A stretch of 64,000 nucleotides of DNA from Pseudogymnoascus verrucosus (GCA_001662655.1 KV460229.1); one strand, 5' to 3'. Positions 28,331-64,000 are shown, counted from the stretch's first letter. Notes: generated by a model not told the origin, from the letters alone. Made by a program: numbers and translations.

Positions 28331-28762
28331 ATGGCCCCACCATCCGCAGATGTGGACACCGCTCCAGCAGCTCCGCACCAAGCATCCCCATCCAAACCGA
28401 GGGTAGTATTAGGAGGTTCCGAGACCCATGTCTCAACCTTATCCAAACCACTTGTTTACAGCGGCAGCTTGGACGAATATAAGTCCTTCGATGTGACTCC
28501 GGTTATTGGACGGGAATATCCGGAGGTGAGGCTGGTAGATATTTTGAAGAATGATGTTAAGATTAGGGATTTGGCTATTCAGGGTGCGTATTAAAGAATG
28601 GCAGTGCATACAGAGTGTTTCTAACTGGTTTACTTAATAGTTTCTCAACGCGGGGTGTTTTTTTTTTTTTTTTTTTTTCGTAACCAAGGCATCTCTGTTG
28701 ATGACCAGAAGACGCTTGGTCAAAAGCTCAGGGAGCTCACTAGCAAACCTGAGAGTTCTAAG
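28331..28762 (+). pseudogene. 5' part of a TauD/TfdA alpha-ketoglutarate-dependent (sulfonate) dioxygenase gene; exons 28331-28583 and 28641-28762, remainder absent from window
   Basis: PLVYSGSLD...FDVTPVIGREYP...IRDLAI.VSQRGVF..RNQ motif. Intron 2 donor GTATGC at 28763, with no recognisable downstream exon. Confidence 0.85.
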
Positions 28763-28828
28763 GTATGCAACCATCTACTTCCACACACAGAACATCAGTA
28801 TTTAGTTCCCAACACACATATAACAATC

Positions 28829-28888
28829 ACATACGACCATAGACTTAAGAGAATTAGGCATCCCGTCTGCTCCGCCATACACAAGCTT
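28829..28888 (+). rRNA. 5S rRNA gene, 5' half only (interrupted)
   Basis: ACATACGACCATAGACTTAAGAGAATTAGGCATCCCGTCTGCTCCGCCATACACAAGCTT matches the 5' ~60 nt of ascomycete 5S and the copy at 40448-40566, then diverges (weak similarity may run to ~28906). Confidence 0.88.
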
Positions 28889-28968
28889 GTAATTCAGTAG
28901 ACTAATGCTCTTAATCATGCTAATAGGCATAGCGTGGAATCTAAGCCCCTTACTGCCTTAAGGGTTAA

Positions 28969-29033
28969 CGTAAGGGTAAGTAGGGTAAGCTAAGGCGTAA
29001 GTAGAGTAAGTAGGATAAGTAGGGTAAGGTAAC
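28969..29033. repeat. Degenerate 9-bp tandem array (GTAAGTAGG)n
   Basis: GTAAGG GTAAGTAGG GTAAGCTAAGGC GTAAGTAGA GTAAGTAGG ATAAGTAGG GTAAGG. Confidence 0.7.
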
Positions 29034-29039
29034 ATACTG

Positions 29040-32000
29040 TTTTTATATTAATTTCATGTTAGTCTTACGTTAATTTTATAATAGTACTAGAGTGTAGCTG
29101 TTTTAGCTTATATACCTTATTTAGGTGCCTTGCTCTTATTTTCTATAATCTACTATTTATAAGCTATAAATCTAAGCTAAATTAAGCCCTAAAACATGTT
29201 AAGGTGCTATATTAACACTATAAGTAGCTAAAGTTTATAACTATATTATAAAGTTTATATGATTTAGAGACTTAGAGAAGGAACTAGATCTCCTAAAGTA
29301 GGTAAATAACGTTTAAACTTCTTACTAGTAGTTCCTTTATTACTAAAATTAACCTTATTATAGTTGTTATCCTACCTTAGGCATAAGACTCTACTTATCT
29401 TTAAAAAGCTAACCTTCTACTATTTCTATCCTTATTATCCTTACCTATGTTAATAGGTAGTAGCTAAGAGGAAGCTACATTTTTAGTAGATATTAGAAGT
29501 AACTATAATCTCTCTAGAATGCTTACTCTACTATCTCTAAAGATATAAGATCTCTCTCTACCTCTCTTTACTTTAACAACTCTAAGATTAAATATAGAGG
29601 TAGTATAAACCTCCTTCTAACTAAACATAAAAGGGGCTAGGAGTATCTAATAACAGCTATAGTCATTTTAGGCTACTTATAAGGATGCCCCCTTACTTAG
29701 GTTAGTTATAGCTGTTATATAGCACTATTAAGACTTAGGGCTATTATAGGCTAGTTATAACTAATAGCCTTAGGTATATAGTATAAGGAAGCCTTAGGTA
29801 AATAGAGAGTTAGCTAAGTTAGAGTAGTTTTAGGTATTTAAGGAGACAGCTATAAAGGGTTATATCTTTATCTTTTTTATATCCTTTATAGTAGACTTAT
29901 AGGATTATACTAACTCCTATCTAACTTATACTCTTATATACAACTTCGTATAATATAGTGCCCTATGTCCTTATATATAGGATATATAGCTATTTTCCTA
30001 TGTAATCCCTAGTTATACATAAAGCCTCTAATAGCTACTTTAAGCTTAGTATAGCATATGATATTAAGAAGCGTTGCCTTATTAAGTAAGAAAATTAATG
30101 TATTACTAACTATGTAATCTACTACTAGGAATTACTAGTATTCTATATAGAGATTATATAAGATTATATAACTATTATAATACACCCCCTAATGTATCCC
30201 TATACAAGCCTTAAAATGTAATATAAGAAGCTTAGGAAAAGGGGTAGTTATACTTAGGCTAGTAATAGTTATAAGAGACGTACTAACGCCTAATGATTTA
30301 CACCTTATGCCTAGTTTATATAGTACTAACTAGGCATAAGTTGTTAACTTTAGTTAGTAATCCTCTATCTTTCTTCTATATTAGTCATCTACACTTTTAG
30401 TCTACCTACCTACCTACCTTCTACCTTCTGTCCCTATCTGCCCTACCTACCCTACCTACCCTATACTACCCTATAACTCCCTATACCCTATACTACTTCT
30501 CTCTTCTTATTAGCAAGTCTATACAAGCTAAGATGCCTACTGTTAGATAGGTTTTTATAGTAGACCTAAGCAAGGTCTTTATAGATGCTAACATCTATAT
30601 TTACCTTCCTCCTACTACATAGGAGTCCCTACCCTATCCTCTACCTTTTTTAGCACTTTAGGTGCATATAACTGTCCTATATAGGATGTAAGGACATAGG
30701 GCACCGTATCACAAGAAGTTGCATATAGGAGTGTGAGTTGGATAGAAGTCGGTGCAATCCTATAGGTCTACTATGAAGGATATAAAAAAGATAAAGGAGA
30801 AACAGGAACCCGTTGTGTCAGCTCCCCCCTAGTATCCGAAACAGGTCCGACTCCGCTAGGTTACGCAGCACGTGACTATACTAACCCTACGTCCCTAGCA
30901 CGTGGCTCTATAACAGCTCCGAGACATCCTTACACTACCCCCCTCCTAGAAGGTGCTTTGTCCGCAATGCACGAAGTTCTATCAAATAGCCACTTCCTAT
31001 TGCTCATCTGGTTCTAGGTTGGGGTCGTTGCAGTCACGGTACCTAACTGTAGCATTAAGCAGGCTAGTTGCTCGAGGGCGCTCGAGGGTTGGCTTAGGGA
31101 AGAACGAAGGCTTCGTAGTCGTAGCAGATACTCCTCAGAAGGGATTCGGAGTCGCTGCCTCTATAGAATCTAGAGGCTGTGTGACTGTAGTTGTAGTCTG
31201 TTTAGTAGGAACGCGAGGAGGATCCAGCTCATTGTTCTAGCGCTGCTCCTAATCAAAGGCAGTAAGTTCTCGGACTATGGTGTAGTAGTCTCCCTTCCAT
31301 TGACTTTTGATAACTGCTACGCGGCTACGGAATTGAGGGGTCAACTTGTTCCACATGTACCGAAACCATTCTAAGTAGGCTACTTGTCCTGTAATAGCTG
31401 CACCCTAGAAACGTGCTTTAAATTCAGGGAAGGTCTCATCTATATGTCCCTTCTCTCCCATATGTAGGTCGTCGAAGAGGTTCCGAGCCTGCTCCGTCTC
31501 GTTTCTAGTAAGGTAGTATGAGCCTAGAAGGTCCATCATCTCGTCTGCACTCTAGAACCCATGCGTAGCAGATAGGTATTGTGGCTCTAAGTAGGTTTTT
31601 GCAAGGCTGGTTGTAGTTCCCTAAATCAACGCTCTTCTAGAGAAGTCAGTAGGGTAGTAGTCCTCATTAACTATGAGACGGTCCCGAATCGACGCGCTCC
31701 ATTGTAGGAAGGTGTGTTCTATCCCATTGCTAAGCGGAGTAATCCTCTTAGAGATTATAGATTTCTTATAGTGGTTTAGAGGGTCTTCGGTAGGTATTCG
31801 CAGCAGCCTTGAAATCGATGGAGAGCGAGTGTTCTAAAGAGGCGGCAGTTAAACTGTCTTAGGGGTGTTTTGTGTAGGAGATCGCTCCGTAGGTATAGGG
31901 GTGTCCTCTAGTGTAGGTAGGGTTCTTGTCTGACTTGCTACTAGAGTCGTAAGTAGCTCCTTAATCTCTAGCATCTAGGTCTCGAGGACTGCCATTCGGT

Positions 32001-33320
32001 TCGGTATGTCCTTAGTAGGTAGAGCGGTTTAGGCGATGGCTGCTGTCCGTCCTATGGCTCTAAACGGTTGGCCATCATTGTTAAGTGTAGTAGGTGTCGA
32101 GTTCTTCAACATAATGGTTTAGAGGTGTATCGAGTCGCAGTCGATACGGAAGAGAAGAGTTTGATTTCTAGGTAGCTCGTAGCCATCAACACTCTTGTTC
32201 ACATATTCCTCTGTGCGTAAGGGGGTTCTTAAGGATCTCGTATCCTATTCGGCGCCAACGCGTTAGCGACTTTACCAGCTTGCTCTACAGGATCAAACCC
32301 TAATCTACTAGTTGTCTGTGAGTTCTCTAGGGTCACGGCTATTTGAAGTCGTTAGGTCTCTACTTCGAAATGTCACTGAGTTGCGGTCGGTGGTGTTTCG
32401 ACAGTTCTCCTAAGTCGTTCTAGTTGTAGGATATTATTTACGTATAGCCGTCCCTAGCAGGCGTGATCTTTTTTGTATAATGTAAGGACATAGGGCACCG
32501 TATCACGAGAAGTTGCATATGGGAGTGCAAGTCGGATAGAAGTCGGTGCAATCCTATAGGTCTACTACAAAGGATACAAAAAAGATAAAGGAGAAACAGG
32601 AACCCGTTGTGTCAGCTCCCCCCTAGTATCTAAAACAGGTCCGACTCCGCTAGGTTACGTAGTACGTGACTATACTAACCCTACGTCCCTAGCACGTGGC
32701 TCCATAACAGCTCTAAGACATCCTTACATAGGACTCCTAGGAATATTCGCCTTAAACACCTATAAGAAATTATAGGGTTCTACATCTAGGTAGTAGGGGA
32801 GAATGTTGCTTAAGTCTCTTACATAAGAGCTAAGAGTTGTAAGTAGTATAATGCTATATATAGAGAAGAGGGATCTTAGTAGATCCCCTTCTTTATAGTA
32901 TATAGATCCTTTAGGGATATATAGGGAGGAGCTTACACTTCTTATGTAATAAAGTACTAGGTAGCATACTACTCTCTTTATAAGTACTTCCTTCCCTTCC
33001 TTCCTTTATACCTTTTTGCATTTCTATATGTCTATATAAGCTAACATCTCTAGATTCTTCTTAAGAAGATTAGGAGCCTACCCCTCCTCTAAAGGATAAA
33101 ACTCCTTATCCTAGGGAATAAGCTAGGACTTAGGCCTACGCTTAGAAGTTAGCCCTTAAGGCTACATAGAGAAATAGTAGTAGAAATAGTAATAGAAATG
33201 CTATTTAAGTATAGATTTAGGCGTATAGACTTATAGAGTTTAGGTTTTTATAGTTTTACAATGGTTTTTATATATAGATAGACAGAAATAGCAATAGATT
33301 TCCTAGTAATTCTTATGCTA
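29040..33320. mobile_element. Heavily RIP-degenerated sequence of unidentified origin, host of the LTR element insertion
   Basis: Very AT-rich, TA-enriched and CA/TG-depleted, with no readable ORF. Family not assignable by eye. Confidence 0.4.
30687..32728 (-). mobile_element. Short (2042 bp) gag-only non-autonomous Ty3/Gypsy-type LTR retroelement
   Basis: 248-bp LTRs at 30687-30934 and 32481-32728 (TGTAAG...CTTACA). 5-bp TSD TAGGA on both sides. PPT GGAGGGGGGTAG on the minus strand at 30935-30946. Stop-riddled gag-like frame and no pol. Confidence 0.92.
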
Positions 33321-33546
33321 TTCTTATAACAGTTCCGTATATAGTTATAAGTATAAGAAAGGTAGGAGATTCTCCTGTTTTTATACAATAAAGCCACTTC
33401 CTAGGGTTAGAGCTGCTAAATTCAGCAGGACGTAGTTGCTGCTTTACATAGCCTCTACCTCTCGCTAAATCTAAAGGCACGTGAACGCAACTCACATCGC
33501 AGCCCTACATCGGTATTAAGTAATAAATTGTATGTATTGCTGACTA

Positions 33547-35575
33547 ATCATAGGTGGAAGCGAGTGCGTCTACTTACTTACGAGAGGAAGCAAGTACGTC
33601 TACTCAACTTGCATATGTTTACTGCTACTCTTTACTAAAACTTTAGACATTCCCCTACATAGTAATTTATATAGTAATCAAATGTAATTCATTTAATGGA
33701 AGGGACACCTTTATTAAATGCCTGTGAATGGCTAGTAGCAAACCCCTCTAAATCTATAGGTGCTACTAGTTGGATTTTTAAAGTCCTAAAGTCTTCTATA
33801 CAGTTAAGAATTACCTAAGCAGCTCTAAGGAAGCCACCCTATAGAGGTTAGAATAAGGTGCTTTCTACAGCTTAAATAGAGGCCCTAAAGACCTAGATTA
33901 CAGAGCAATACCACCTAGGGCTTAGGGCTAATAGGCATATGGTCTACGGGGTAGTATGCCACCTACGGAGCCTACTACCTCCACTGACATAGAGCTGGCT
34001 TACTAAATATATTAAGAGGGAGCTTATGGATTTTCACTTTATTACTATAAAGCCTATTGCTTGGCAGCGTACGCAAGCTCATGAGCCTATAGATGTTATT
34101 AAGTGGTTTAAAGAGTACACAGAATTAGTACTACAGCGCCATATAAATCTAGAGTTAATCTAGAATATAGATGAAACTGGTTTTAGGATTGGAATTCTAG
34201 GAGGTAAGAGAGTTATAGTCCCTAGAGCTATAAAGCAGCTCTATACGCTAAGTCCTAAGAATCGTATATCTATTACAATTATAGAGGCAGTATCTGCAGC
34301 TAGACAGAAGATTCTACCTATACTTGTTGTACTAGGTAAAATTCATATGGAATCGTAGTACCCTAAAAACCTCTATGGGGACGAGCTGATACTACTCTCT
34401 AAGACTGGCTATTCTAATAGCCAGCTTGCTCTACGGTGGCTACAACACTTTATAGAGCTTACTGCTCTACACAACTAGGAGAATCCTAAGCTTCTACTCC
34501 TTGATTCTCATGGGAGCCATAGGAGCGATGATTTCGTCATTCTTACTGCTAAATATCACATCATTGTATTAGCCTTTCCTAGTCACCTTACACACGTTTT
34601 ACAGCCATTAGACGTAGGAATATTCCAACCATATAAGCACTAGCATAGGCAAGCTGTGCTCCGTGCCATACGAGAGATGGATATTACCTACAACCTACCC
34701 TAATTTATGAGAGATCTCCCATAGATGCAGGAGCAGACCTTTAAGGAATCTACCATACAATCAGCGTTCTAGAAAGCTGGAATCTGGCTAATAAGCTGTA
34801 ATACAGCCCTCGAAAAGCTATGTACGTACTCGAGCCCTACGCAACCTACAGAGCCTACTACACCTACCCTACCAACCCAGCCTGTAACACCTATTCCTTC
34901 TACTTTCTAGGGTGTAGAACAGGGCCTACAGCGGTGGAAGGAGCGGGTTCCGGAGGCCTTCAGTAGCCCCTCTAGGCAGAGCTACGGCAACTAGCTTACT
35001 AGTGCAGCCTAGGTTCTGGCTGCCGGCTAGCTCCAGCAACTTGACCTACAGGCTATTCGGCAGCAGGTTAAGAACTCGAAGAAGAAGCGGGGGGGCCGGG
35101 GCCGGCTCTAGCGTGGAGGTGAGCTCCGGGCTTCTGAAGCCTACGAGCTTCAGGCTAAGAAAGCTGAGCTTCAGGCCTAGAAGCTCGCTGCCACCGAAGC
35201 TCGTAAGCTGAGCCGGGCCCAAAACCAGGCCTGGAAACAGCTCGAACGAGCAGCAACTGAAGCTCGGAAGCAGGAGCGAGCCCGGGAGCGAGCCCGGAAG
35301 AAGAGCCTGGCTCAGCTCACTAAATTAGGCCTCCCAATTCCTCCGGAGTTGGAAGACCCAATTACTAACCTAGATTCTGAATCTGAGAGCCAGTATGAGA
35401 GTGCGAGTGAGGGTGGGAGTGGGAGTGGGAGTGAGGAAGTGATAATTTCGTAGAATTGAAATTTTAAGTACTTTTACATACAAATTACTATGGTTGGGTA
35501 CTTACGGTCGCAATTTGAGAGGACGCACTCGCTTCCTCTCGTAAGCGAGTGGACGCACTCGCTTCCACCTACGAT
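33547..35575 (+). mobile_element. pogo/Fot1-family DNA transposon (2029 bp), RIP-mutated
   Basis: ~55-bp TIRs ATC(A/G)TAGGTGGAAGCGAGTGCGTC..., TA TSD. Transposase relic NIDETGF...LLLLDSHGSH...LQPLDVGIFQPYK. Confidence 0.93.
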
Positions 35576-36005
35576 TATGTAATTAACTACTAGGAATTAC
35601 CGATATTCCGTACGGAGATCACGTGAGATCATGTAACTATTACAACAATCGGTTACCCTTCAAACGGTTCCTAGTTCCTAACTCCTATGATTTGCTTTCT
35701 GCTTTCCGTTTCCCTCTTTTCTACTTAACCTAAGGTACTACTTGCCATCATGATTATAAGGGCCACTACACAATGGACTACCTAGCCGCTCGGACTGGCT
35801 ACTTGTATAAATACCTTGCGATCCTGTCGCCAACATCCAGCACTAGCTCTTCTAAGAAGCTTACCCTCTTACGTTATCGAACAAGTCAGCCTAATAGATC
35901 CTTGTCTCCTAAAGGCAGGCTCCTTATGACTCTGTCTACAGATCTCTATGTTCATTTTGTTATCCTAAGCCTATTGTTGAGTTGCCCATTATGTCTACTA
36001 AACAA

Positions 36006-38541
36006 ATGGCTAACTAGCAACTGCCTACTCTAAAGCAGAACATAATAAGTTTTGTCACTAAATGAACAAGACATGCTCAACAGCTAAAGAAGCCTAAGCG
36101 CACTGCTAAGGACTACTAGGCTATAGGTTAAGAGCTCAACACTAAATCTTAGAAACCTAAGGATGCTAAAGCCATAAAGGAGAATGTCTAAGGCATATAG
36201 CGCAAGTAGACTAAGTAAGTTAACAATGTCCCCCTTAAGGCTCCTATCACTTACCTAAGATAAGGTTCTGCGCTTTTTAGGGTGTAGACAATGTGTAAGG
36301 AGCTATTTAACAATACAATAGGGGGGCAACTATATTGTTCCTATACTTTATCTGTAAGAATTGTAAAGTTAAGGCATTCAACTCTATCTACTAGTACCTA
36401 CTTTAGTTCAAATAACTCTACAATTAGATTAATAGGTGTTATATAGATACAAACAATATAAAAGAGGTGTTTAAGGTATACTCTTGTATTTAATGTTACT
36501 TATAGAAGATATAACACTAATGCTGTATATATAGTATCTAGATATAACCTTAGCAGATAAATTCAAACTTAAACAAATAATAAAGGCTAAACTAGTGTTA
36601 GGAGCAGATAATATCCTTCTTCTCCTTACTTACCTCTAGGCTTAGGATACCTCTATATTTCTAATTAAGGACTAACAGTTAGCACTTATAGGTGTAATAC
36701 TCCTTTCTATCTATACTAGTTGCTAACCTGCTAAACTAGTTAACACCTTAAAGTATGCATTTAAAAAGACTACCTCTTGTAAACGCCTATATATAGAAGT
36801 CTAGGATGCTGTTAATAAGTAGATAAAGATAAGTGTGTAGATAAGGGAGATAGATTAGATAAGCTGAATTATTAAGGGCAAGAGCTATAGGATAATGAAA
36901 ACAATACTAAATATAACAATAATTACTTTAACCCTAATACTGTAGAATGTAAATATAAGTGTCTATGCTATAAGGATATCTGTCTCTAAATTGTTTAGAA
37001 CCTTATATAGGGAAAACAAGACTTTATAGGAATAGAGATCACTTTCTCCTATTACAAAGGTGCTAATAGAAAACCAAAACTGTATGTCCCTCTATAATGC
37101 CTCTCTCTTATCCCAACTAACTTTATAACTTTAGTACAACTTTTCTCTTTTATAAAGAAGCTCTTCCTATACTTTGCTCTATTAGCTATGTCTTAGCTAT
37201 TGCAATAAAAGATAATGCAATTGAGGTTAAAGGCTTGTTGTAAGTAGAGCCTTTTTTTGCAAGTCATCTACAGCACCCTATTAAAGCTGTACTAATACAC
37301 TAAAGGCTAGAGATGCTTAAAAGGCCTATATTCTATTAGGCTGTATACATATGTAATATGTTCTATATATTAGAGTAGAAGGCTCTACACTACTTAACTT
37401 ACACTTACTACCTTAATTGTCTTAGCTAGGCAACTAGTTTTAAGTAGAAGTTAACAAGCTACTGTTTTTGTAGAGGCATAGGAAACACTGTTAATAGTAA
37501 ACTTCCTATTAATTATAATTTACTCTAACTAACAAGTGCATAGGGGCTGTAACAACAGCAGTTTGCAACTAGATACTAAGACATAATCCCTAGACTAGTG
37601 TCTTTTGTAGATTATACAACAATAAGAAAGTTAGGTTTATTATTTAAGATATAGTACTAGACTAGCCTACTAATTCTGGCTTTCTCTAGGCCTTTATACA
37701 TATAAGCCTCACTTATAATCCCTATGCACCTTAAATAGTGCCTAATAAGGTTTGCAATGCTCTCCTGCCTAATCTAGAGCTAGTGTAGCTTAAGCTTAAG
37801 CAGTAAGAGCTTTGCTTAGAACTTAAGCATTTATATAGACACATATTTATTTAGGGTTTAATTAGAACAGAAGCTAGTGAAGAATATTGTTAATTAAATA
37901 GACAGATTGCTATAGTAACAAAGATGCTTAAGTAAGAGCTTAAGAGGGAGTACTACTAGGACTACTTCTACTATATCTACAACAAAGAGCTTAAGAAGAT
38001 CATAAAGAAGGTTATAGTTATAGCGCTAATATATATTAAGCTAGTTGTTAAGCACTAGCTGCTAGAACAGACCTAGCTTTAAGAAATCATATGCAACCTC
38101 TTAAAGGATCTCAATCTATACAACATTGCTATATAATAGATCTATGCTATTAACACAATAGTTGCACTATCTTGTTGCTAAGAAGTCTAGTGTTATAAGT
38201 TGCAGCTAAGCAAATTGTCTTTAGCATCTTCTCTTAGAGAGTCCCCTTTGCTAAAGGAAGAATTGCCTGTTCCTGATATTTTCCCTCTTAAATGTAAGAA
38301 AACTCAGTGTATATTTTGTATTAGTAACAATTAACAGAGTTATAAAAGACAAATGCAGACCTTCTCTAAACCTAACAAGATAATGGACTATATTAAGAGG
38401 CATTTAGAAAGGAATACTATAGGGGCATTTAAATGCTGCTATCTAGTGTACAAGGCAGAAGGGGTAGTTCTGAACAAAGTTGTGCTTTTTAAGATTCACG
38501 TTAATGAGGTGCACAAGATTAAACTTAGAGATAAACTATAA
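36006..38541 (+). pseudogene. DUF3435 tyrosine recombinase (Starship captain-like), RIP-inactivated, multi-exon
   Basis: Read-through translation gives YTSC*PAKLV (~36712), KCLCYKDICL, SYCFCRGIGNTVN (~37460) and ILRHNP*TSVF..LY (~37575). C-terminus FPLKCKKTQCIFCI...IMDYIKRHL...FKIHVNEVHKIKLR matches the DUF3435 layout as I recall it. Confidence 0.85.
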
Positions 38542-40401: not shown

Positions 40402-40447
40402 TATACATCTTGAACAACTAGATATTAAAAAATATATATATATATAT

Positions 40448-40566
40448 ATATACAATAGTAGGTATTCGCTAGTAGTCACCTACCTAACTACTAATCTACT
40501 GATCTTAAGGTTATGTATAGTAGAGCAGATAGGATGCCTAGTTCTCTTAAGTCTATAGTTGTATGT
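40448..40566 (-). rRNA. 5S rRNA gene, full length (119 nt), RIP-mutated
   Basis: The minus strand reads ACATACAACTATAGACTTAAGAGAACTAGGCATCC...TTAGTAGTTAGGTAGGTGACTACTAGCGAATACCTACTATTGTATAT. It is followed by (TA)n and a T6 run resembling a Pol III terminator. Confidence 0.9.
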
Positions 40567-54404: not shown

Positions 54405-56260
54405 ATGGGGAAACTAAGAGGTCTCCTATCATTAGGCATTAGCCTTGCTATAGAAGCTGCTTCGGCCTAGAGTTTACAACCCCTAAGGGTCTACGACTCT
54501 TTAAGATACGAAAGTAGGTTCTCTACTATAGGACAACTTTAAATTCCCAAATACTGAAATAAGAAGGAGCAAACCACCATTTAAGAAGCCTAGATGGGTT
54601 TCAGCAGTCTCAACTTGCGCACTTTAGTAACGAGAACTATGCACGAACAGAGTTTAATGAGGCCGGCAACGAAATTTACGACGGGCAACAATTTCGCTCA
54701 GAACAGCTTTTAACTTAAGGAGGCCTCTTATATCCCGTTGTTATCCCTTAGCGTAGGCTAGAAAATAAAAGTCGTGGTTAGTCTAGGGTGTATGCTCCCG
54801 CCCTCGAAGGTTGCAGCATTGATCAAGAAACATTTCTGTCGTTTATTGAGTCATTTAACAGAGAGAGCTAGGTCTGTTAATTTCATTTTATGCCTGGTGG
54901 CGAATATTGTTCCATAACCGATTAACGCTTACTAGCATTTGATTAACAGTCTTCTCCTTACCTAGATGCTGTTAACGTGGCAGCGCTTCGAGTGGGATTT
55001 ACTCTAGGAATCGCGCCCATCGTCATTTCAACTGCTCTGCTAATTGCTGTACAATATGCAAAACAATCTCAGACTAATTATAAGTAAGCCTACTTAGTGT
55101 TTGAAAGATCTAGACACCTATACTGATGGCTTAATCTCCGTTTAGAACAAAGACATACTTGGATAGAATGAACGAAGAGCTCTTCGTCCCCTATGGATTG
55201 TTTGCTATGGTTATGACATACAAGCTAGAGCAATCCAGCACGATTGTCAATACCAATTCAATTTCTTCTTTGCAATTGCAAGACACTGCAGCAAACAGGT
55301 TCGAAAATCCAGAAAATATTCGACCCTAAGGATTCCAAATGCCTAAGGCGTCTCCTCTAATTTTTTTCGACGCTGGATCTCTTCCTACTAATAAACCATC
55401 TAACTGCCTTAACAAGATCACCGATTTTATCTCTAACTACCATGACTGTTGAGCATGGGCACGATTTGTAAGTGTTTACTCTGTGGACTAAGTAGTAGGT
55501 CGTCTAACATATCATTAGGCGCAAGATAATCTAGGCTTACCCCTTGCTAGACCAGCTCTAAAGTTCAGTAACCGCTTCGCTAACCCAACGTTAGCTAACA
55601 ATAATAGCAGCTTACTATTGACAATATCTAGAAACGACTGACGGAGTGACAAAGAAACGAGCAAAAGATTGAGAAAAGAGGAACGAAACGCTTAAAAGGA
55701 AGGCTGTAGAGGGCTAAAGGACAATGGAAACGAACGTGGGCACCTTATACACGGACTTGTTTCAAATCTAACGGAGAGGTCCGGTTATAGCGGAAGTTTC
55801 GGACGGGGGCGCCCTCGACTTATATTAGGTGTGCAGGGTATTGTGAATGGCTCTAGCTCATCCATAGCAAATAGGAAGGACTAGGGCCTTTTGAAGTCCA
55901 TTAAGAGCATTAGGGCAAATTCAGATGTGCTATATTTAATGATCGTTAACAACCCTATATCCGACATTACCTCTCGTGAACCCCGATCTCTACATGGTAC
56001 GAGACAGAATCTAGAAGAAGGGTATGATTAGCAAGAAGATCTACGACTTGACTATTCGTACGACGGCGCACTGTCTAGCGAACGGTTTAATCTAAGTGAT
56101 AGGCATGATCTAACGCACGATGAGCAGTATACTACAGACAACGATGGCCGTTTCGAGTAGCAGGTGGCGCCATACTAGTATTAATATTAGCATGATATCC
56201 CTAGCAGCCTACCGCTGAGATACAACGGCATGGTCACAAGACGGGATATAAGGCTGTAAA
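54405..56260 (+). pseudogene. Conserved fungal hypothetical protein, RIP-damaged
   Basis: PVVIP*RRLENKSRG*SRVYAPALEGCSIDQETFLSFIESFN, YLDRMNEELFVPYGLFAMVMTY and DVLYLMIVN. Introns and stops present. Confidence 0.6.
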
Positions 56261-57457
56261 AGTGGGATCGAAATGATGACAAGGAGTACTGTGTGACGGG
56301 ATTTTAGGTTACTGTCCGAATATGTGGGATGTATTTTTATTGTAGGTTTGGTTATGATGGTGTTGTTAGATTTGGAATTAGATGAAGAACAGTACGACTC
56401 GTTTAGGAGTTATTTGGAATTGCGAAACACGACACAGGCTAGAAGGTTAATTTAACCTTTAAATCCACCTGAGCCCTGTACTAACACCTCTCCTGTAACT
56501 GCGTACTCACTTCTTATGTGCAGCTAACCTATGGCTGCGTATTCGCCTAAAGCTTACGCTAGATTACGTTAGGGGCCTCGACCTATTAACGACGATCGTT
56601 TGCTTGTTCTCTATGAGTGTAATAAGGACAGCTTCTATACTTACGAAAATAGTAGATATCCGTGATTTGTAATTTATTAAGGCTCTTTTGTTGCTTATAC
56701 GAGTCTAAAGCTCCGATCTCCACTTTCCCCGAAAATCTACTCTAGATTTTGCCTGAAGCATGATTTGTGTTCTTTTCGACTGCTTGTTTAATCACTTACA
56801 TACTATTGTATAGTAAGCGCGCATTAATGGAGAAACATCATGCAATCACTAGCGAGGAGTCCCATGAAGGTCTGGATGGCGCTAGAGACCTAAAAGTACT
56901 ATTAATGGATAGACTAACAACGAGATAAGCCTATATTAAATATAGCATTTTGAAAAACATACTAGTCATTGCAGAACTAGCGTATATTGAATGTTAGTGA
57001 TTGACGGCTATGAGAGTTAGGTTTTAAATTGCAGCTGGCTTTTCCTTTTACTATAATAGCTCTACTGCAATACGAAGCAGGTCCTAATCTAAGAGTTCCA
57101 TTACAGCTGTTGGGGAAAATAAGTCTAGTACGTTATAGACAATATGAGATCCTTGAAGATTGTCTTTCGTTAAGCAGTTTAGGAGGCGGAAGGCGTTTGC
57201 ATCGCTTACGACCTGTAGCTATCGTCAGCATTAATCTAATACTGTATAAAGATAGGCGGCAAGATCACTAGATTTGAGTAGGCTACTAAGCCTATGTGCT
57301 ACATGACGGAGCGGCTAAGTAGCTAAATAAAAGTCGTAAGTGTTGTTCTAAGAACTTCAACTTTGCTAGGACATATCAATTAGAAGGATAGACGACTGAG
57401 GCCAAATTTAAGGGCTAAAGCTATGCTCTAGCTAGCATAGTGTAGCCAGCCTCCCTT

Positions 57458-59090
57458 TTAGAGAAGATACTTGAAATATAATCCTCTGTCCCCTTCTTTG
57501 CCATTTTCCGTCTCTCCATCTGCAATAAGCTTCTCCTTCTTTATATTGCAGCTTCGTAGCACTAAATAGATAGCCCCTACTCTAAGCAGAGCAATACACT
57601 CACAGGCTAGCGATATAGAGTTTCTGATAATGTATCTAGGTGCATCTGTAGCAGGATAAATGTTTGATGATAGGACACCGGAGACATTGGCAACAGACAC
57701 GAAGATTGGAATACTAACGGATTACTTATAGTCTAGGGCCAAATTGATAGAGATCCACGTCAAAACAAGGTAATTGAAGATGTAGATGCCTATAAATGGT
57801 TTCTGTCAGTAGCTATTATAATGGAAAATCGCGTCTAAGAGTATCGACAAACGTACTAGAAGTAACAAGGAACATGGCAAAGTAGCTAGCAGCAATATTA
57901 GCAGTTCTAATTACTATGGCATACCCTATTATGACTGGAATTGGAACGACTGCTAATAAGGTTACCTATGTGTTTAGACGATCTGAGAGGAATGATAAGA
58001 CACTAACGGCAATGGTCGCTATAGCATATACCGGAATGGTAAGGTAGTTGGCCTGAATAGGGGTGTACCTAAGGGCCGCCATGTTAGCGGATATCTTAAC
58101 TACTGTAAAGGAGAATGTAATCACCCGAGGCCCTTAATAATGGTAGGTAAGAATGTGCCAAAGCTAAGTAAATAGATTGAGTTAGCGAAGAGGGTAATAC
58201 TAGCTAAATAGACTAACGGGTTAGCTACAGCCATTGTAACATAGCTCTATGAAAAGGTGTCGCTGCCCTTATACATGAAGTTACGCTGTTTCCTTGCGCG
58301 CATGACCTCCTTCTCTTTAGCTGTGAGAAACCATGCCTCCTTAGCGTTTTTAGGCATGCTTGCCTAGCTGGCTATGCAGATCACAATGGAAACAACACCC
58401 TTAATAATGAAGAGCCATCGCTAAGTAGACAGACTAAGGTGGGTGCCTATTGACTAGATTCCATAGGCAATTAGACCTCTAAATGCTCTAGAGACAGTGG
58501 TTGCAATATAAAGAATGGCAACTCGCTTTGCTTAATGTTCTTAGGACTAGATGGTCGAGATGACAAAAATTAAGGATGGGAGGAGACTAGCTTTAAAGAT
58601 TCTAAGGAGGAGCTAAACTACGACTACTTGTGCGTATGTTTAGATGAATCTAGTACTAAGGGTAATGGTACCCTACCTAGTAAGAGCAACAGCAAGGGTT
58701 TTGTCTGTACCGAACCGCTTAGTGGCAACAACCTAGAATACGTTAAAGACGATATATGTAGGGTAGAATACAGTGGATATAGTGTTGAACTGGTTTCTAG
58801 ACAGGCTAGCACTAGCTTCGAATCTAAAGACCTTTGCATTTCCTGTAAATGAGTGAGCCTTACACCCTACACCTTGTACTGTGTATGAGTAGTTACTTAC
58901 TAATGTTGGAACGATTAAGGTATGCAATTAGAACAAGGATGGCCATCTAGGGGAGCAGGAATTTGTTAAACTTGGCTAAGGCCCGCTTCTCGATGACAGG
59001 ATCCATAAAGATGGTAATATCGATATCTAAATTCTTAATATCAACCACCTAAGAAGATGTCTCTGTAAGAGAGGAAGTTTTCTCTATGTT
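57458..59090 (-). pseudogene. ACS/Dal5-family MFS transporter, RIP-damaged
   Basis: FNKFLLP*MAILV, *RWLFIIKG, YLTIPVYAIA, NVSGVLSSNIYPATDAPRY and GDRGLYFKYLL*. Many stops. Confidence 0.78.
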
Positions 59091-60089
59091 GGTATTTAGG
59101 AATACAATTTGTAGGAATGTCTTAAAGGAATAGACTTTATTCTAAATCTTTACCTAAAGTACAACACAAGGCAGAGAGAGACACTTTATGTAAGTAGATC
59201 CTACGCGAAAGGGGCTAAATGTTTTGGTATTAGCCTGTTTAGTCGGAAGGTAGGAGTTGCTTATCTGTAGAGTTGAAGGGTTTAGGACTTTAGCTACCCA
59301 TGCCCTGAATTTCTCATACGGGAAATGATCTGCACGTGTCTGAACCGACCCGCCCATCCCTAGATTCTAGCCGATTAAGGGGTATACAGCAGGCCACGCG
59401 GACACTCTTACTAGAAGAGGTCAGTATCTTATCTTTTAATTCATTGTGTTGTGCGAGCTTTAACTGGTTCGACTGTAGATCTAACAATGCGGAGATATAT
59501 GGTCTCTTAGCACAATGCCACAGATGATCCATGATTCTAGGGAAGTCGCCCTACCATTGCCATCCCTACAAGTCCGAGCCGCATCTCCGAAAGTCCACTA
59601 TCTGTCCCACAACTCCGAGACGCCAACTAGGACTCTACGCAACCTTGTAGAATGAGGCAGTGGAGATGAGGTTTCTTGAAAACTAACATTTGCTCATTAG
59701 CACAGCAAGAATAAGTGACCTTCCGCGGTTATAATGCCAGCCCACACTGTTCTAGGTTCAACCTCGCAGTCTAAGCGTTCACAACGTAAGGACTTTACCT
59801 AGGGGCTGTCAATCTAGCAATATAGGTAGGTGGGACGACAGTCCCTGGTTCGTGAGATCGCAAGCAAAAGCTGATCATGGAAAAACTTTGTAAAATTGCG
59901 TCATGGATCTACTAAAACACAGGTCGTGATTATTACTGTATAGTATTCTTTAGGCGTGTTACCGTTGTAGGCAATCATTAACAAAGAATATCTACACGAA
60001 ATGGGGATCTAAATTAGACTTGATCTAATTATTATGACTTGCTACTTCTTGAAGATGCTTACTAGATGTTAAATCTACATACACAACTC

Positions 60090-61530
60090 CTTAACCCACG
60101 GACTCTGTTTACTGAAATGGCTCCTTAAATAGCGAGTCATACTTCACTTCCACCGCAGCCTCATCCTCCTAACCTTTGCTAAGCACCTTATCCCTCTCCT
60201 TACATGCGGCTATGCTGCTAGATATCACTTGCATACTGCCTTGAGCTCTTACTCCTTTCACTAGTGCTACAGTCTAGGGTTGTCTTAAAATTGAGAATTA
60301 GTTAAAGACCCGCTGTAGATCCTTAATAGAGATGTCGGCATTGCTTTTATAATCGAAGGTAGGGAGCATTTAGCTTAAGTGATAGCAGTCCTCCCTATAA
60401 GAACGAATATTTAGTGAACGAGCTTAGTGATGATTATACACTGTACTCACAATGCTTAGTTAGCACCTTGTCCGAGATGTGGGCTAGTTAGGTGTGCAGC
60501 ATTGCTAATTAGAACATAACGTCCTAGTTTAGGGCTATACCACAACTTTAGTTTAAGATGAGGTCGATTGTACAACCCGTATTTGATGATTCTTTCAGCT
60601 CTACGAATCAGTTCTAATGCTAGACTGCTCTAATCCTTAAAGTCCTCTAATAATGAATCTTGCTCTAGAATCATTTTAGCTAGGGAGCATATTTTCCATG
60701 TTTCCTGTGCTTTGGTTAAGTCTCTTTTTGTAATAGCCCACGATGTCGTAGTAGTAGTAACTAGATAGTAGATGAGATGTGCCCTAGGGCTGTATAGGTT
60801 AAGAAGACTAGGGCGCTTCTGCAACGATAGTGGTGTAGGGGACATTCTGGCAGTCTATCTTAATATTAGCTTCTGTTAACAAAAACTGCAGTAATGGTAG
60901 TCCTACCTGTATTAGACCTATGTAGGCAGCCTCCTCCAGTTGTATTTGGTGCTCTTTTAGTAGTAAGGCTCTAGACATAGCCTTGATACCATTACACCTA
61001 ATAAGTATTGATCCTTCTATACGTTTACTGTCCTCTAAGATCGCTATAACGCCATCTTCCTTCTCTAAGATGGTTTTTAGTTTCCATCCTTTGTGAACTT
61101 TAATGTCTGCGTCGATTAAAGCGTTCTTTAAAGTCAAGTTGAGTGTCGTCCGCTTAATTCCGCAAGCTGGCTAGCTGTACTTGCTCTGCCACTTAGCAGG
61201 ATTATATGATACTCTAATGGTCTTTCTAGTATAGTTTGATCGCGAAGTTCGCTAAGATGAGGCACTTGCTAGGTGACTACGTCTGCGAGGCCCACGAGTG
61301 CTAAAATTTTCAATCTAAGTTATGCTAAGTCACTGTTAGATGAATTAAAGACAGGTGAGATAACATACCCATTAGGCATTATCATTAACGATGCTCTAGC
61401 ATCTCCTAACTCCCTCACTTTCTCTAATACGACTAGGGTGTAGCCTTTCTTTTTCAGCAACAAAGCAATAACTAGCCTAGCTACTCTACAGCTAATAATT
61501 AGGACTTTTAGCTCTATATCAGCGTTTATA
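60090..61530 (-). pseudogene. FAD-dependent monooxygenase (salicylate-hydroxylase-like), RIP-damaged
   Basis: KVLIISCRVARLVIALLL (GxGxxG eroded by G>A), GIKRTTLN, LIRCNGIKAMSR, and an AAH...HLGQGAN relic. Confidence 0.75.
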
Positions 61531-61774
61531 TACTGTTCTAGAATTGAATGTTTAGGGGGGATAGTCTTCTACAGAAGTAATGTTAATTGAATGGGTAGGA
61601 TAATTATGTAAGAACGTTTAAAAGCGATTCTTAACAAGAAGTAGACATGACACAATCCAATTGCTTAAATATTTTCAACACGATCTCGCAGCAATTGACG
61701 TCACAATCCTTTAGAGGTGGAAGCTATAGAGCCTGCCATCTACGTTGCCGAGTGAGTTAGGATCGTATGGTACT

Positions 61775-61906
61775 AGGGAGCTGAATGAATCTCCTTCAAA
61801 ATCCGTGTCGCGGTCGCTTAGATATCGCTCGGACTTGTAAAGGGAGCTGAATGAATCTCCTTTAAAATCTGTGTCGCAGTCGCTCGGATGCCCCTCGGAC
61901 TTGTAG
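61775..61906. repeat. 66-bp imperfect tandem duplication
   Basis: AGGGAGCTGAATGAATCTCCTT... starts at 61775 and again at 61841. Confidence 0.88.
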
Positions 61907-62206
61907 TGATAAGCATCGGAGATGCTTATTGCTAGAAGCGGGAAATCCAAACCCACCAAAGTTAGCAGGGACCGAAGTTAATGATGGCCTTAGTAAACAG
62001 CATGTGCGACGTACCTAGGTAAGGACCTAGGCTGTCAACTAAGCAGTCGTCTTTAAGTCTTCTAAAGCAGTAGTGATTATGGCTGCTAATGTTAAGTGCT
62101 TAACTTTTTCTACAAACGTCAAGTACCATCTTGGTTTTTCTTGCGCCAGATCAACAAACCTCGCACATTGCCTACGAAGAGCTTTACATAGCTGTGCAAT
62201 ATCGAA

Positions 62207-63380
62207 ATGGGAAGCATTCTTCCTTTGTACTAGATAGGCGTTGATGTTGGCGGAACAAACATAGACGCTGTCATTCTCGACCCTAACGGTGCGCTTTAGG
62301 AAAACCGAGGAGTTGTTGCATTCCACAAGACCTCGACAACTAGCCCTAATGTTACAAACGGCATTAAGTTGGCCGTAAGAGCTGTGATTGAGCAATTAGG
62401 GATTAGCTTAGGAGAAATATCTTCTATCTGCATTGGAACAACGCATTTCATTAACGCTGTCGTTAAGCATGATGCGAAACAGCTATCTAAGGTCGCTGTC
62501 ATTTGCCTTTTGAAAAGCTACACGCGCGATATACCACCTTTCTCTAACTTCCTGCCTGCCCTAGCTAAGCTTATGAACGGTTACTATGGATATGTGAATG
62601 GTGGCCTCTATATTGATGGCTCTTAAGAAAGTCTAGTACTTAAAGACTAGGTGATCTAGTAGTGTAATATCATTAAAGAAAAGGGACTTAACACGATCGT
62701 CATCTACGGGGTGTTTTCCCCAATCGATACACACTTTCGTTAGGAACACCAAGTTCGGAAGATAGTGCTTTAGCAACTGCCTAGTGCAGATGTGGTTTGC
62801 TCGTCTAAAGTTGCAAACATAGGGTTCTTAGAGCGAGAAAATGCGTCTATCCTCAACGCATCCATCTTGAAATTTGCGCGAAGAACGATTATAGGCTTTA
62901 AAGCGGCTATGTAGAGGCTTCAACTAGAGTGCCCTCTATATCTAACACAAAACGATGGGACACTAATTGATGCTGCAGCCGCTACTAGGCTCCCTATTCG
63001 GACTTTCTCCTTAGGGGCTACTAATTCGACGAGAGGTGCGGCTTACCTAGGATTATCTTCTTCTTAGGGTACGCAAAACACATCTACAATAGTCATTGAC
63101 ATTAGCGGGACAACTAGTGACGTTGGAGTTCTGTTACCTTCTAGTTACCTAAGATAGGCATCGGCATTCGTCACTGTTGTAGGAATTAGAATCAACTATA
63201 ACATGCCTCATGTCGAATCAATCGGTTTAGGTGGTGGCTCGATTATTAAAGTTAACGAACATGGTGATGTTACCGTTAGACCCACATTAGTTAGGTATTA
63301 ATTAACTACAAAGGCGAAGATATTCCACGGCGATGTTCTTACTGCTATAGACATCGCTGTAGCCCATGACCTAGGTACCT
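62207..63380 (+). pseudogene. Hydantoinase/oxoprolinase family gene, RIP-damaged and apparently 3'-truncated
   Basis: GVDVGGTNIDAV, IGTTHFINAVV, LERENASILNA, QNDGTL, IDISGTTSDVG and ESIGLGGGS, with stops and a frameshift. Confidence 0.8.
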
Positions 63381-64000
63381 TGCAAGAGCTGTGTACGGTC
63401 GAACTGTGTGGATCATTGTCGCAAGCATCCTGCCCCTGTCAGAAGGAATGGGGCGCCTAGGCTCACTGCACGAAGAGCAGCTGCCATGTACCGCTCTAGC
63501 AGTGCGCAGTCACCTCAATGTTAGGATTAGGATCAGAATTAGGATCAGGGCCAAACTTAGAGCCAAAATCAGGACGAGAATATAGACTAGCGCATCGCTC
63601 GGAACTAAACTCTTCCATCTCTAACTTCTAGCTACTAAGAAAATTCCTTGGACGCTGCAAGAAGCAGCGCCTCAAGTAGCTATGGCTAGCAACCTGTCGA
63701 TGCTAGATATCAGAATACCTCTTTACCTAGAACTACGCTTAATTAGACCTTACAGTATCCCGTTGAGAGAGTTAGCACTGTCTATATGACTAACATCTAC
63801 GATTTGCTAAAGGGTTAAAACCCCCCTTCTCATTTTCGCTCAAGTACTAGAGCAAGCATCCCGTTCGATCACCTTTCATTTCGGCCTATCTAACATTGCT
63901 GCTGGGTGTTTTAGATTCTATAAGTCGTGGAATATCGGATGAAGATGACTAAGAATCGATCTGGAAACGCCATCTTTGTAGTTTCCTACCTATATAGAGC

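What the first reader, a model, noticed from the sequence alone, without database searches (positions are those of the whole stretch)
28331..64000. Candidate Starship inserted into an intron-borne 5S rRNA gene, splitting a TauD gene
Seen: TauD exon 2 ends at 28762, and a 5S rRNA gene starts 66 nt into the intron (28829). The 5S stops after ~60 nt, exactly where RIP-ravaged sequence begins. The rest of the 5S and of TauD are absent from the window. The first recognisable gene after nested TEs is an inward-facing DUF3435 recombinase, followed by >20 kb of cargo-like genes. Known: Starships are mobilised by DUF3435 captains located at their 5' end, and several families target dispersed 5S rDNA. 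Inference: this is a Starship left boundary, and because the 5S target lay inside an intron, a normally harmless target choice disrupted a host gene.
Basis: partly seen in the sequence, partly recalled or inferred. Interest (0 to 1): 0.92.

Follow-up and report, generated by a model that had tools for sequence, protein, structure and literature searches.

The report
Dead Starship relic beside broken 5S
A fungal gene for a TauD-type dioxygenase stops after its second exon, where a cut-off 5S rRNA gene meets the mutated remains of a giant-transposon recombinase gene; this looks like an old, dead Starship insertion of a known kind, but its far end and its cargo cannot be shown from this window.

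Summary
TauD exons 1-2 (28331-28583, 28641-28762) end at a GT donor exactly where relatives continue with 'LHRH...'. A 5S 5' part starts at 28829 and runs about 77 nt, not about 60. Strong RIP (repeat-induced point mutation) starts there. No other TauD or 5S 3' sequence is in the window. A plus-strand DUF3435 recombinase relic lies at 36535-38529. It is nearly full length but dead, with at least 26 TAA/TAG stops and frame changes.

It also missed that most right-hand genes are RIP-killed pseudogenes, apart from an unmutated island at 45.8-50.5 kb.

- **For a Starship 5' junction in a 5S gene:** the captain's orientation, about 2.8 kb of own DNA once nested transposons are removed, and paralogous copies with the same 5S junction in four public assemblies.
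- **Not shown:** the 3' end, an empty allele, or that 45.8-64 kb is cargo.
- **Against a resident intronic 5S:** two of three TauD relatives have a 47-48 nt intron here without a 5S. A roughly 30-nt 5S upstream flank starts about 37 nt into the intron, so a second junction near 28799 is possible.

This is a new member of a known kind, of modest interest.

The parts
25303..27312 (-). Left-flank MFS (allantoate/phthalate-type) transporter, transcribed divergently from TauD
   Evidence: ORFs. The best relative is V492_05160 of Pseudogymnoascus sp. VKM F-4246, 88% identity, which is the neighbouring locus tag to the TauD ortholog V492_05159.
28331..28583 (+). TauD/TfdA exon 1
   Evidence: bounds read from the sequence.
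28641..28762 (+). TauD exon 2; contains a T21 run (28658-28678) that gives seven Phe where relatives have 'VVFF'
28763..28798 (+). 5' part of TauD intron 2 (GTATGC...); no branch site or acceptor follows
   Evidence: Relatives have 47-48 nt introns at this codon boundary.
28799..28828 (+). About 30 nt of upstream flank shared with the other 5S copy; possible second junction near 28799
   Evidence: Anchored comparison: 17 identities plus 8 transitions in 30 positions. The BLAST hit starts at 28807.
28829..28905 (+). 5' fragment of a 5S rRNA gene (positions 1 to about 77), not RIP-mutated
   Evidence: Alignment to the 40447-40566 copy. Not reported by Rfam.
28906..29865 (.). Heavily RIP-mutated DNA directly after the 5S break, the presumed 5' end of the element; includes a 9-nt tandem array at 28961-29032
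   Evidence: GC 0.31. Tandem repeats. Summed contig depth about 2.7 times single copy, and joints to other loci in four runs.
29866..32728 (.). Nested LTR-retroelement debris: an inverted LTR fragment at 29866-29982 and an LTR pair at 30686-30934 / 32480-32728 around a gag-like frame
   Evidence: Self-BLAST, 94% over 249 nt. The gag-like reading is by eye from the translation; there is no Pfam hit.
32729..33544 (.). Own DNA of the element between the nested transposons
   Evidence: Depth about 2.6 times single copy, and the joint 33472>35702 in X1 and X2 comes from a paralog that lacks pogo 1.
33545..35577 (+). Nested pogo/Fot-type DNA transposon 1, with 68-nt terminal inverted repeats
   Evidence: Inverted repeats. 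DDE_1 E 2e-16 at 34275-34676.
36535..38529 (+). DUF3435 tyrosine-recombinase (captain-type) relic; nearly full length, RIP-killed, read in at least 3 frames
   Evidence: Pfam. phmmer finds 86 relatives, best E 2.3e-24. tblastn maps P0283 residues 23-715 of 716 collinearly. The homologs match PF11917 at E 1e-38 to 1e-61. There are 26 stops against P0272, all TAA/TAG.
38537..40405 (+). Nested pogo/Fot-type DNA transposon 2, inserted just past the end of the captain reading frame
   Evidence: Inverted repeats 95% over 65 nt. DDE_1 E 2.7e-16 at 39225-39659.
40447..40566 (-). Full-length, RIP-mutated 5S rRNA gene followed on its own strand by a T run
   Evidence: Rfam RF00001, 47 bits, model positions 1-120; sequence.
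41717..41971 (-). Ankyrin-repeat fragment in near single-copy DNA
   Evidence: Ank_2 E 1.2e-5. Depth 1.3-1.6 times single copy.
41978..44616 (.). Nested 2.6-kb element with 129-nt terminal inverted repeats
   Evidence: no Pfam family at E 0.01.
44617..45700 (-). Fragment of a third pogo-type transposon
   Evidence: HTH_psq at 45502-45600. Similarity to pogo 2 at 39111-39184 / 45148-45075.
45827..50500 (.). RIP-free island containing an intact MFS gene (45912-47507, minus strand). Similarity to two other organisms resumes at 45827
50501..64000 (.). Moderately RIP-mutated gene block: weak Zn-cluster TF hit (50473-50775, -), DUF7702 (52255-53162, +), MFS pseudogene (58124-58807, -), hydantoinase pseudogene (62234-63364, +). 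Whether this is cargo is unproven
   Evidence: In-frame stops 11/377, 11/228 and 3/242 codons.

Best explanation
28906 is the 5' junction of an old, dead Starship-type element whose DUF3435 'captain' recombinase inserted it site-specifically into a dispersed 5S rRNA gene at about position 77-80. That 5S copy, with about 30 nt of its own upstream flank, lies 37-66 nt inside intron 2 of a TauD dioxygenase gene, so TauD now ends after 125 codons.

Afterwards RIP (repeat-induced point mutation) destroyed the captain, and at least four other transposons landed inside the element: LTR debris, two pogo/Fot elements and a 2.6-kb element with terminal inverted repeats.

**Shown:** the truncations, the relic with its orientation and decay, the nested transposons, and that the junction region is repeated elsewhere.

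**Inferred:** that the captain's family made this junction, and that the 5S sat in the intron beforehand (I put this at about 40-45%).

**Open:** how far the element runs. Its repeated, captain-bearing part ends between 40.4 and 41 kb. I put the chance that 45.8-64 kb is its cargo at about 40%.
For: - **Junction.** The 5S is cut at about position 77, and strong RIP begins there.
- **Captain.** It is on the plus strand, so it reads inward from that junction. The relic maps to residues 23-715 of a 716-aa DUF3435 protein.
- **Distance.** Own DNA between the junction and the relic is about 2.8 kb once elements bounded by LTRs or inverted repeats are removed.
- **Repetition.** Summed contig depth is about 2.5-2.7 times single copy over 29.0-29.7, 33.0-33.7 and 35.7-38.3 kb. 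An 82%-identical paralog of the captain region exists (record 6). The joints 28893>29079 (X1, X3, X4) and 28965>29101 (all four runs) show other loci where 5S sequence, or the DNA just after the break, adjoins this sequence.
- **RIP decay.** All 26 stops against P0272 are TAA or TAG, and 19 of 26 fall where the homolog has Q, R or W.
- **Host flank.** TauD is host DNA: its ortholog and the ortholog of the left-flank transporter carry adjacent locus tags in a relative.
- **Literature** (passages read). 23% of curated Starship insertion sites lie in 5S rDNA, with at least 5 distinct internal target sites (PMC11162782). Voyager and the Osiris elements fragment 5S genes (PMC9156397; 10.1101/2024.06.28.601215).
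- **Lead only.** The break lies at or just before the 5S motif GTAGTT, which Table S1 of PMC11162782 lists as the manual direct repeat of an A. flavus Starship. The table does not flag that element as 5S-targeting.
Against: - No 3' end, no direct-repeat pair and no empty site were seen. The window holds no 5S 3' part next to element DNA.
- Rfam does not recognise the 5S fragment.
- An intact 5S in the opposite orientation lies 41 nt beyond pogo 2, right after the captain. A simple insertion model does not predict it.
- TauD relatives have a 47-48 nt intron (2 of the 3 that cover the site) or none (1 of 3), and no 5S in any of the 4 loci scanned. The 5S-type flank begins about 37 nt into the intron. 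The TauD break may therefore be a separate junction near 28799.
- In X3 and X4, the contigs that match from 45827 rightwards continue 5.5 kb and 24 kb leftwards as sequence unlike the window. The left flank lies on other contigs (this is weak evidence, since the table lists only the longest pieces).
- 45.8-50.5 kb is not RIP-mutated.
- The captain's family could not be assigned.
Confidence: 0.55

Rival explanations
1. Unrelated neighbours at a synteny breakpoint. 28.8-45.8 kb is an ordinary RIP-mutated transposon island. A deletion or translocation, for example ectopic recombination between repeats or 5S copies, cut TauD and joined it to this island. The 5S fragment and the DUF3435 relic just happen to lie 7.6 kb apart.
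For: - The island holds at least five different transposon remnants.
- In X4 the left and right flanks lie on different contigs, and the right-flank contig continues 24 kb leftwards as unlike sequence.
- In two Pseudogymnoascus genomes the TauD and MFS orthologs are on different contigs: VF21_06560 and VF21_09181, V492_05159 and V492_05118-range tags are not involved, the MFS tag being V492_02718.
- Orphan captain-type recombinases are common. Table S3 of PMC11162782 lists 10,771 predicted recombinases, against 587 rows of classified elements in Table S9 (table titles and sheet sizes seen).
Against: - The orientation and the net distance of the captain fit a 5' boundary.
- DNA just after the 5S break is repeated with 5S sequence attached at other loci and in other organisms.
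- The break falls inside the 5S, at a motif that Starships are known to use.
Confidence: 0.25
2. A single Starship of at least 35 kb runs from 28906 beyond 64000. All right-hand genes are its cargo, and a resident, harmless intronic 5S gene was the target. This is a special case of the best explanation.
For: - 50.5-64 kb is gene-bearing yet RIP-mutated, so it was once duplicated.
- The MFS gene has two copies at 90% or more in P. verrucosus and in VKM F-103, and depth over 45.7-47 kb is about 1.7-2.5 times single copy in X1. This fits a mobile or duplicated block.
- TauD's neighbour in relatives is not this MFS.
Against: - There is a RIP-free island at 45.8-50.5 kb.
- Depth falls to near single copy at 41.0-42.3 kb.
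- Other organisms carry the right-hand block inside long unique contigs with no captain next to it.
- Relatives have short introns without a 5S.
- No Starship accessory family, such as DUF3723, ferric reductase, patatin or NACHT, was hit at E 0.01 in any of 31 read-through frames.
Confidence: 0.25
3. The 5S fragment is the head of a short 5S-derived repeat, SINE-like or a pseudogene block, that has nothing to do with the recombinase.
For: Several loci join the 5S part to sequence like 29.0-29.2 kb. From memory only, with no paper seen: Aspergillus nidulans is reported to have 3'-truncated 5S pseudogenes with a conserved downstream block.
Against: - Depth after the break is only about 2.7 times single copy, not the tens to hundreds of copies expected of a SINE.
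- No A-rich or simple-repeat tail and no target duplication is evident.
- The same modest copy number holds for the captain region, which suggests one shared repeat.
Confidence: 0.07

Closest known systems
5S rDNA-targeting Starships: Voyager of Macrophomina phaseolina, the Osiris elements of Aspergillus fumigatus, and the Enterprise-, Arwing- and Voyager-family elements
   Same: A DUF3435 captain at the 5' end reading inward. Insertion inside a dispersed 5S gene, which is thereby fragmented. Several copies per genome with the same junction (PMC9156397; PMC11162782; 10.1101/2024.06.28.601215; passages read).
   Different: Voyager cuts 20 bp from the 5S start, whereas this break is at about position 77-80. 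Here the captain is RIP-dead, the element is riddled with other transposons, only one end is visible, the family is unassigned and no empty site is known. The 5S lies inside a protein-coding gene's intron.
RIP-degraded Starships, for example the Letharia lupina Starship1 marked 'Ripped' in Table S1 of PMC11162782
   Same: Captain and cargo carry RIP damage, and boundaries are hard to call (one table row seen).
   Different: That element has both boundaries and an empty site curated. This one has neither.
Orphan DUF3435 / 'FluG domain-containing' recombinase genes and CryptonF elements
   Same: The same Pfam family (PF11917). The nearest relatives are annotated as hypothetical or FluG-domain proteins.
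   Different: Orphans have no defined target junction. Here a cut 5S lies upstream in the expected orientation. Membership of Starship captains rather than Cryptons was not tested by phylogeny.

Membership tests
Starship (giant cargo-mobilising element) | A DUF3435 tyrosine-recombinase captain as the first gene at the 5' end, reading inward | tested here: met
   A PF11917 relic at 36535-38529 on the plus strand. It is the first non-transposon gene after the 28906 junction, about 2.8 kb of own DNA away.
Starship (giant cargo-mobilising element) | Both element boundaries defined, with direct repeats (and sometimes terminal inverted repeats) | tested here: not met
   Only a candidate 5' junction is present. 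No 5S 3' part or second boundary is in the window, and the whole genome is not held.
Starship (giant cargo-mobilising element) | Insertion polymorphism: an empty site in another genome | tested here: inconclusive
   Four of the nine listed runs were laid. X1 and X2 carry the block. The left-flank contigs of X3 and X4 stop about 350 and 650 nt past 28263, near the T run and the 5S. No bridging contig was seen.
Starship (giant cargo-mobilising element) | Cargo genes that move together with the captain | tested here: inconclusive
   The right-hand genes are partly RIP-mutated and the MFS is duplicated in relatives. However, other organisms hold the block without the captain beside it, and there is a RIP-free island.
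Starship (giant cargo-mobilising element) | An intact catalytic recombinase (an autonomous element) | tested here: not met
   At least 26 in-frame TAA/TAG stops and at least 3 frame changes.
5S rRNA (Rfam RF00001) | Score at or above the gathering threshold | tested here: met
   The 40447-40566 copy scores 47 bits against 38. The 28829-28905 fragment does not score at all; it is identified only by alignment to that copy.
TauD/TfdA dioxygenase (PF02668) | Match to the family model, and a full catalytic domain | tested here: not met
   The exon ORFs have no Pfam hit at E 0.01. Membership follows from 79-87% identity to PF02668 proteins over residues 1 to about 120 only. The catalytic part is absent.

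The most novel reading that the evidence does not exclude
A 5S gene unit, with about 30 nt of its own flank, had lodged inside a short spliceosomal intron of a working TauD gene. A 5S-specific Starship then used it as a landing pad, so a 'safe-haven' target choice destroyed a host gene. The element also carries a complete 5S gene tail-to-tail just behind its captain. If that is cargo, such elements would seed new landing pads wherever they go.
Probability: 0.3. Interest if true: 0.5.

Novelty: new member of a known kind. Interest (0 to 1): 0.35.

Why it matters
Starships that target 5S rDNA are thought to pay little cost because single 5S copies are dispensable. A case where the 5S copy sat in a gene's intron would show that this strategy can still knock out host genes, and it would document a 5S gene inside a fungal intron. 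As it stands, this is one more degraded captain-plus-5S junction in a genus already known to carry many captain-type recombinases. Its main use is as a marker locus for a long-read comparison.

Tried and rejected
- **Whole genome.** A search of the window's own genome is not possible; none is held.
- **First Pfam attempt.** A 6-frame read-through Pfam call was too large to print, so it was split into.
- **Rfam on the fragment.** An E-value search over 28600-29200, and one over a stretch cut at the break, gave only chance hits: mir-2187, U6 and SNORD25, with E above 5.
- **RIP-tolerant 5S scans.** Hits at 33337-33381 and 13856-13898 were rejected. Their gapped score of 47.5 equals the 90th percentile of random windows from the RIP block.
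- **5S remainder at 45.6-46.0 kb.** No 5S 3' part lies at the end of the RIP block.
- **Captain family.** Supplement look-ups in PMC11162782 found Pseudogymnoascus recombinases listed under fam01, fam06 and fam08. None of the six accessions of this relic's relatives appear there. The stored file is cut after Table S10, so Tables S11-S13 (insertion sites, 5S flags) could not be seen.
- **Truncated 5S pseudogenes.** A literature search gave nothing usable from the listing. A follow-up read failed on a search term that was too short and was not repeated.
- **Contig cover.** Parts of the laid stretch without long contig cover in X3 and X4 (28264-45826) are not taken as absence, because only the longest pieces are listed. 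The joints 33472>40487, 44411>28850 and 29975>43131 were not interpreted, because the letters between the two sides are unknown.


Full report
**What is at the coordinates**

The window is fungal, and its closest protein relatives are from Pseudogymnoascus. No whole genome is held for it.

At 28331 an ORF opens whose product matches TauD/TfdA dioxygenases. The best hits are two Pseudogymnoascus proteins at 87% and 79% identity, both carrying PF02668.

tblastn with three full-length relatives places only their N-terminal residues, up to about 120-147, at 28331-28816. Nothing beyond that scores below E 0.1 in the window. The relatives read '...PE(S/T)SK|LHRHALSNSK'. The window reads '...PESSK' and then GTATGC at 28763.

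From the sequence, exon 1 is 28331-28583, intron 1 is 28584-28640 and exon 2 is 28641-28762. Neither exon has an in-frame stop. Exon 2 contains a run of 21 T, which gives seven phenylalanines where relatives have 'VVFF'.

**The 5S fragment**

The only Rfam hit at gathering score is a different, complete 5S on the minus strand at 40447-40566: 47 bits, model positions 1-120, GC 0.34.

The piece at 28829 is not reported by Rfam, either in a 600-nt E-value search or when the searched stretch is cut at the break. It does align to the complete copy at 76.5% over 98 nt (self-BLAST E 3.9e-12). Most differences are transitions in the RIP-mutated copy (RIP is repeat-induced point mutation).

The match runs through 5S position about 77, ending '...CAGTAGACTA', after which the two sequences part. 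So the fragment is about 77 nt, not about 60.

RIP-tolerant scans of both strands found no 5S 3' part anywhere else. The best other scores lie inside the null distribution.

**RIP**

The composite RIP index behaves as follows:

| Region | Composite RIP index |
|---|---|
| 1-28 kb | -0.2 to -0.8 |
| 28.5-29.5 kb | +1.03 |
| 29-30 kb | +1.64 |
| up to about 45.8 kb | stays at or above +0.5 in 2-kb windows, tapering to +0.23 at 45-46 kb |
| 45.8-50.5 kb | -0.2 to -0.6 |
| 50.5 kb to the window end | about +0.1 to +0.7 |

**What the RIP block contains**

Self-BLAST and Pfam on stop-read-through translations of all six frames give this order:

1. RIP-mutated DNA with a 9-nt tandem array (28906-29865).
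2. LTR debris, including an LTR pair that is 94% identical (29866-32728).
3. 816 nt of unassigned DNA.
4. A pogo/Fot-type transposon with 68-nt inverted ends (33545-35577; DDE_1 E 2e-16).
5. A 2.96-kb stretch holding the DUF3435 relic.
6. A second pogo/Fot element (38537-40405; DDE_1 E 2.7e-16).
7. 41 nt, then the complete minus-strand 5S.
8. About 1.4 kb of near single-copy DNA with an ankyrin fragment.
9. A 2.6-kb element with 129-nt inverted ends (41978-44616).
10. A third pogo fragment.

**The recombinase relic**

- PF11917 (DUF3435) hits two frames of the plus strand: 37136-37498 (35.4 bits, E 7.5e-9, profile 91-210) and 37546-37989 (21.3 bits, profile 213-357). That is 2 of the 12 frames and none of the 19 other frames searched.
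- A full-library phmmer search with the first piece finds 86 relatives at E 0.001 or better, the best at 53% identity and E 2.3e-24.
- Five of these were scanned, and all five match PF11917 at E 1e-38 to 1e-61. One also has a phage-integrase SAM-like N-terminal domain.
- Sources name the relatives 'hypothetical' or 'FluG domain-containing'.
- tblastn maps residues 23-715 of the 716-aa P0283 collinearly onto 36535-38529 in four pieces and at least three frames. The conserved C-terminal Cys/His block is included, and it ends 7 nt before pogo 2.
- Against P0272 the relic has 26 in-frame stops, all TAA or TAG. At 19 of the 26 the homolog has Q, R or W. This is what RIP does.

The gene is nearly full length, faces away from the 5S fragment into the block, and is dead.

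**Is 28906 a Starship 5' end?**

*Evidence for.* With the bounded nested elements removed, about 2.8 kb of own DNA separates the cut 5S from the mapped start of the relic.

Public assemblies add an independent line of evidence. Nine runs were listed and four were laid. X1 matches with no differences and may be the source. X2 carries the same block.

In X1, summed contig depth is about 197-250 for single-copy DNA. It is about 2.5-2.7 times that over 29.0-29.7, 33.0-33.7 and 35.7-38.3 kb, and falls to 1.3-1.6 times at 41.0-42.3 kb. One X1 contig is an 82%-identical paralog of 36244-38012. A contig in X1 and X2 joins 33472 to 35702, which marks a copy without pogo 1.

Contigs join 28893 (inside the 5S part) to 29079 in X1, X3 and X4, and 28965 to 29101 in all four runs. 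So the captain region and the DNA directly after the 5S break belong to one low-copy repeat, and that repeat meets 5S sequence at other loci and in other organisms.

This is what 5S-specific Starships produce. According to the passages I read:
- 23% of curated insertion sites are in 5S rDNA, with at least five internal target sites (PMC11162782).
- Voyager always inserts 20 bp into a 5S gene (PMC9156397).
- The Osiris elements fragment 5S copies, and 5S-rich loci become hotspots (10.1101/2024.06.28.601215).

As a lead only: the break here lies at or just before the 5S motif GTAGTT. Table S1 of PMC11162782 lists that motif as the manual direct repeat of an A. flavus Starship, without flagging the element as 5S-targeting.

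*Evidence against, or missing.* There is no second boundary, no direct-repeat pair and no empty allele. The complete minus-strand 5S directly behind the captain is not predicted by a simple insertion. The family of the captain could not be assigned. The held supplement is cut after Table S10, so the tables of insertion sites could not be seen.

**Was TauD split by this insertion?**

TauD is host DNA. The ortholog of the left-flank transporter (V492_05160, 88% identity) and a full-length TauD ortholog (V492_05159) carry adjacent locus tags on one 23-kb contig in a relative.

Seven metagenome loci encode TauD relatives. Three of them (L001, L002, L004) cover the exon 2/3 boundary, and I left the other four out for that reason. 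Two of the three have an intron exactly there, of 48 and 47 nt with normal branch sites. One has none. None of the four loci scanned (L001-L004) holds a 5S at Rfam's gathering score.

These relatives are distant, at 49-67% identity. Even so, a 5S in this intron is clearly not the ancestral state.

In the window, the last 30 nt before the 5S start resemble the flank of the other 5S copy: 17 identities and 8 transitions in 30 positions, with no similarity further upstream. At most about 36 nt are therefore TauD intron, and no branch site or acceptor follows.

Two readings fit:
- A 5S unit with its short flank had entered the intron, and the Starship then cut it.
- DNA that already carried the 5S and the element was joined to the intron near 28799 by another event.

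The left-flank contigs of X3 and X4 run about 350 and 650 nt past the last listed match (28263). That would place their ends near the T run and the 5S. This hints that the 5S sits there in those organisms too, but it proves nothing.

**Are the right-hand genes cargo?**

*For.*
- 50.5-64 kb is gene-bearing yet RIP-mutated. The hydantoinase has 11 stops in 377 codons, the second MFS 11 in 228 and DUF7702 3 in 242, with 24 of the 25 stops being TAG or TAA. This block was therefore once duplicated.
- The intact MFS has two copies at 90% or more in P. verrucosus and in VKM F-103.
- In two relatives, the TauD and MFS orthologs lie on different contigs.

*Against.*
- 45.8-50.5 kb shows no RIP.
- Depth is near single copy at 41-42.3 kb.
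- In X3 and X4, similarity to the window (93%) starts at 45827 in contigs of 13.8 kb and 44 kb. These continue 5.5 kb and 24 kb to the left as sequence unlike the window, with no captain beside them.
- No Starship accessory family was hit.

I put cargo status at about 40%.

**Verdict**

A dead Starship-type element abutting a cut 5S is the best reading (0.55). An unrelated transposon island at a synteny breakpoint is the main rival (0.25).

The full reading, with at least 35 kb of cargo and a resident intronic 5S, is a special case of the best reading and stands at about 0.25. A 5S-headed short repeat is unlikely (0.07).

The thing is a new member of a known kind. The intron context would be a modestly interesting twist if the complete assembly bears it out.

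Noticed in passing
window 28658-28678: A run of 21 T inside TauD exon 2. It stays in frame and gives seven Phe where Pseudogymnoascus relatives have 'VVFF'. This may be homopolymer growth in a gene that is no longer under selection. Public contigs tend to break here.
   Followed up: partly
window 40447-40566 (-): A complete, RIP-mutated 5S gene with a T-run terminator lies tail-to-tail behind the captain relic, 41 nt beyond the nested pogo 2. With pogo 2 removed it would be about 50 nt from the captain's end. It may be cargo, a neighbouring target copy, or part of a 5S-rich hotspot like those described in A. fumigatus.
   Followed up: partly
window 45827-50500: A RIP-free island between two RIP-mutated blocks, holding an intact 531-codon MFS gene. 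The MFS's nearest relatives outside the genus are only about 60-63% identical (Coniosporium, Emmonsia, Blastomyces), and it has two copies at 90% or more in two Pseudogymnoascus genomes.
   Followed up: partly
window 50501-64000: A block of RIP-killed genes: a Zn-cluster factor, DUF7702, an MFS, a FAD-monooxygenase-like frame seen by eye around 60-61.5 kb, and a hydantoinase. It points to a former large duplication.
   Followed up: partly
window 27001-42672 versus run X2: Divergence between the window and X2 is uneven. There is 1 difference in 1645 nt of the left flank and 2 in 828 nt just after the 5S break, but 1.8-3.9% across pogo 1, the captain region and 40.5-42.7 kb. This could be RIP after the two lineages split, or mapping of paralogs.
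   Followed up: no
window 41978-44616: A 2.6-kb element with 129-nt inverted ends. It has a frame that looks like an integrase core by eye, and a long Leu/Glu/Ser-rich low-complexity repeat at 43.3-43.8 kb. No Pfam family hits at E 0.01. It is high-copy in all four laid runs.
   Followed up: no
window 25303-28762: The divergent pair of an allantoate/phthalate-type MFS transporter and TauD is conserved as neighbouring genes in a relative. It is possibly a small sulfonate-utilisation unit, now half destroyed.
   Followed up: partly
window 8001-9000 and 13001-14000: Two short AT-rich patches (GC 0.37 and 0.34) in the otherwise RIP-free left 28 kb. They were not examined.
   Followed up: no
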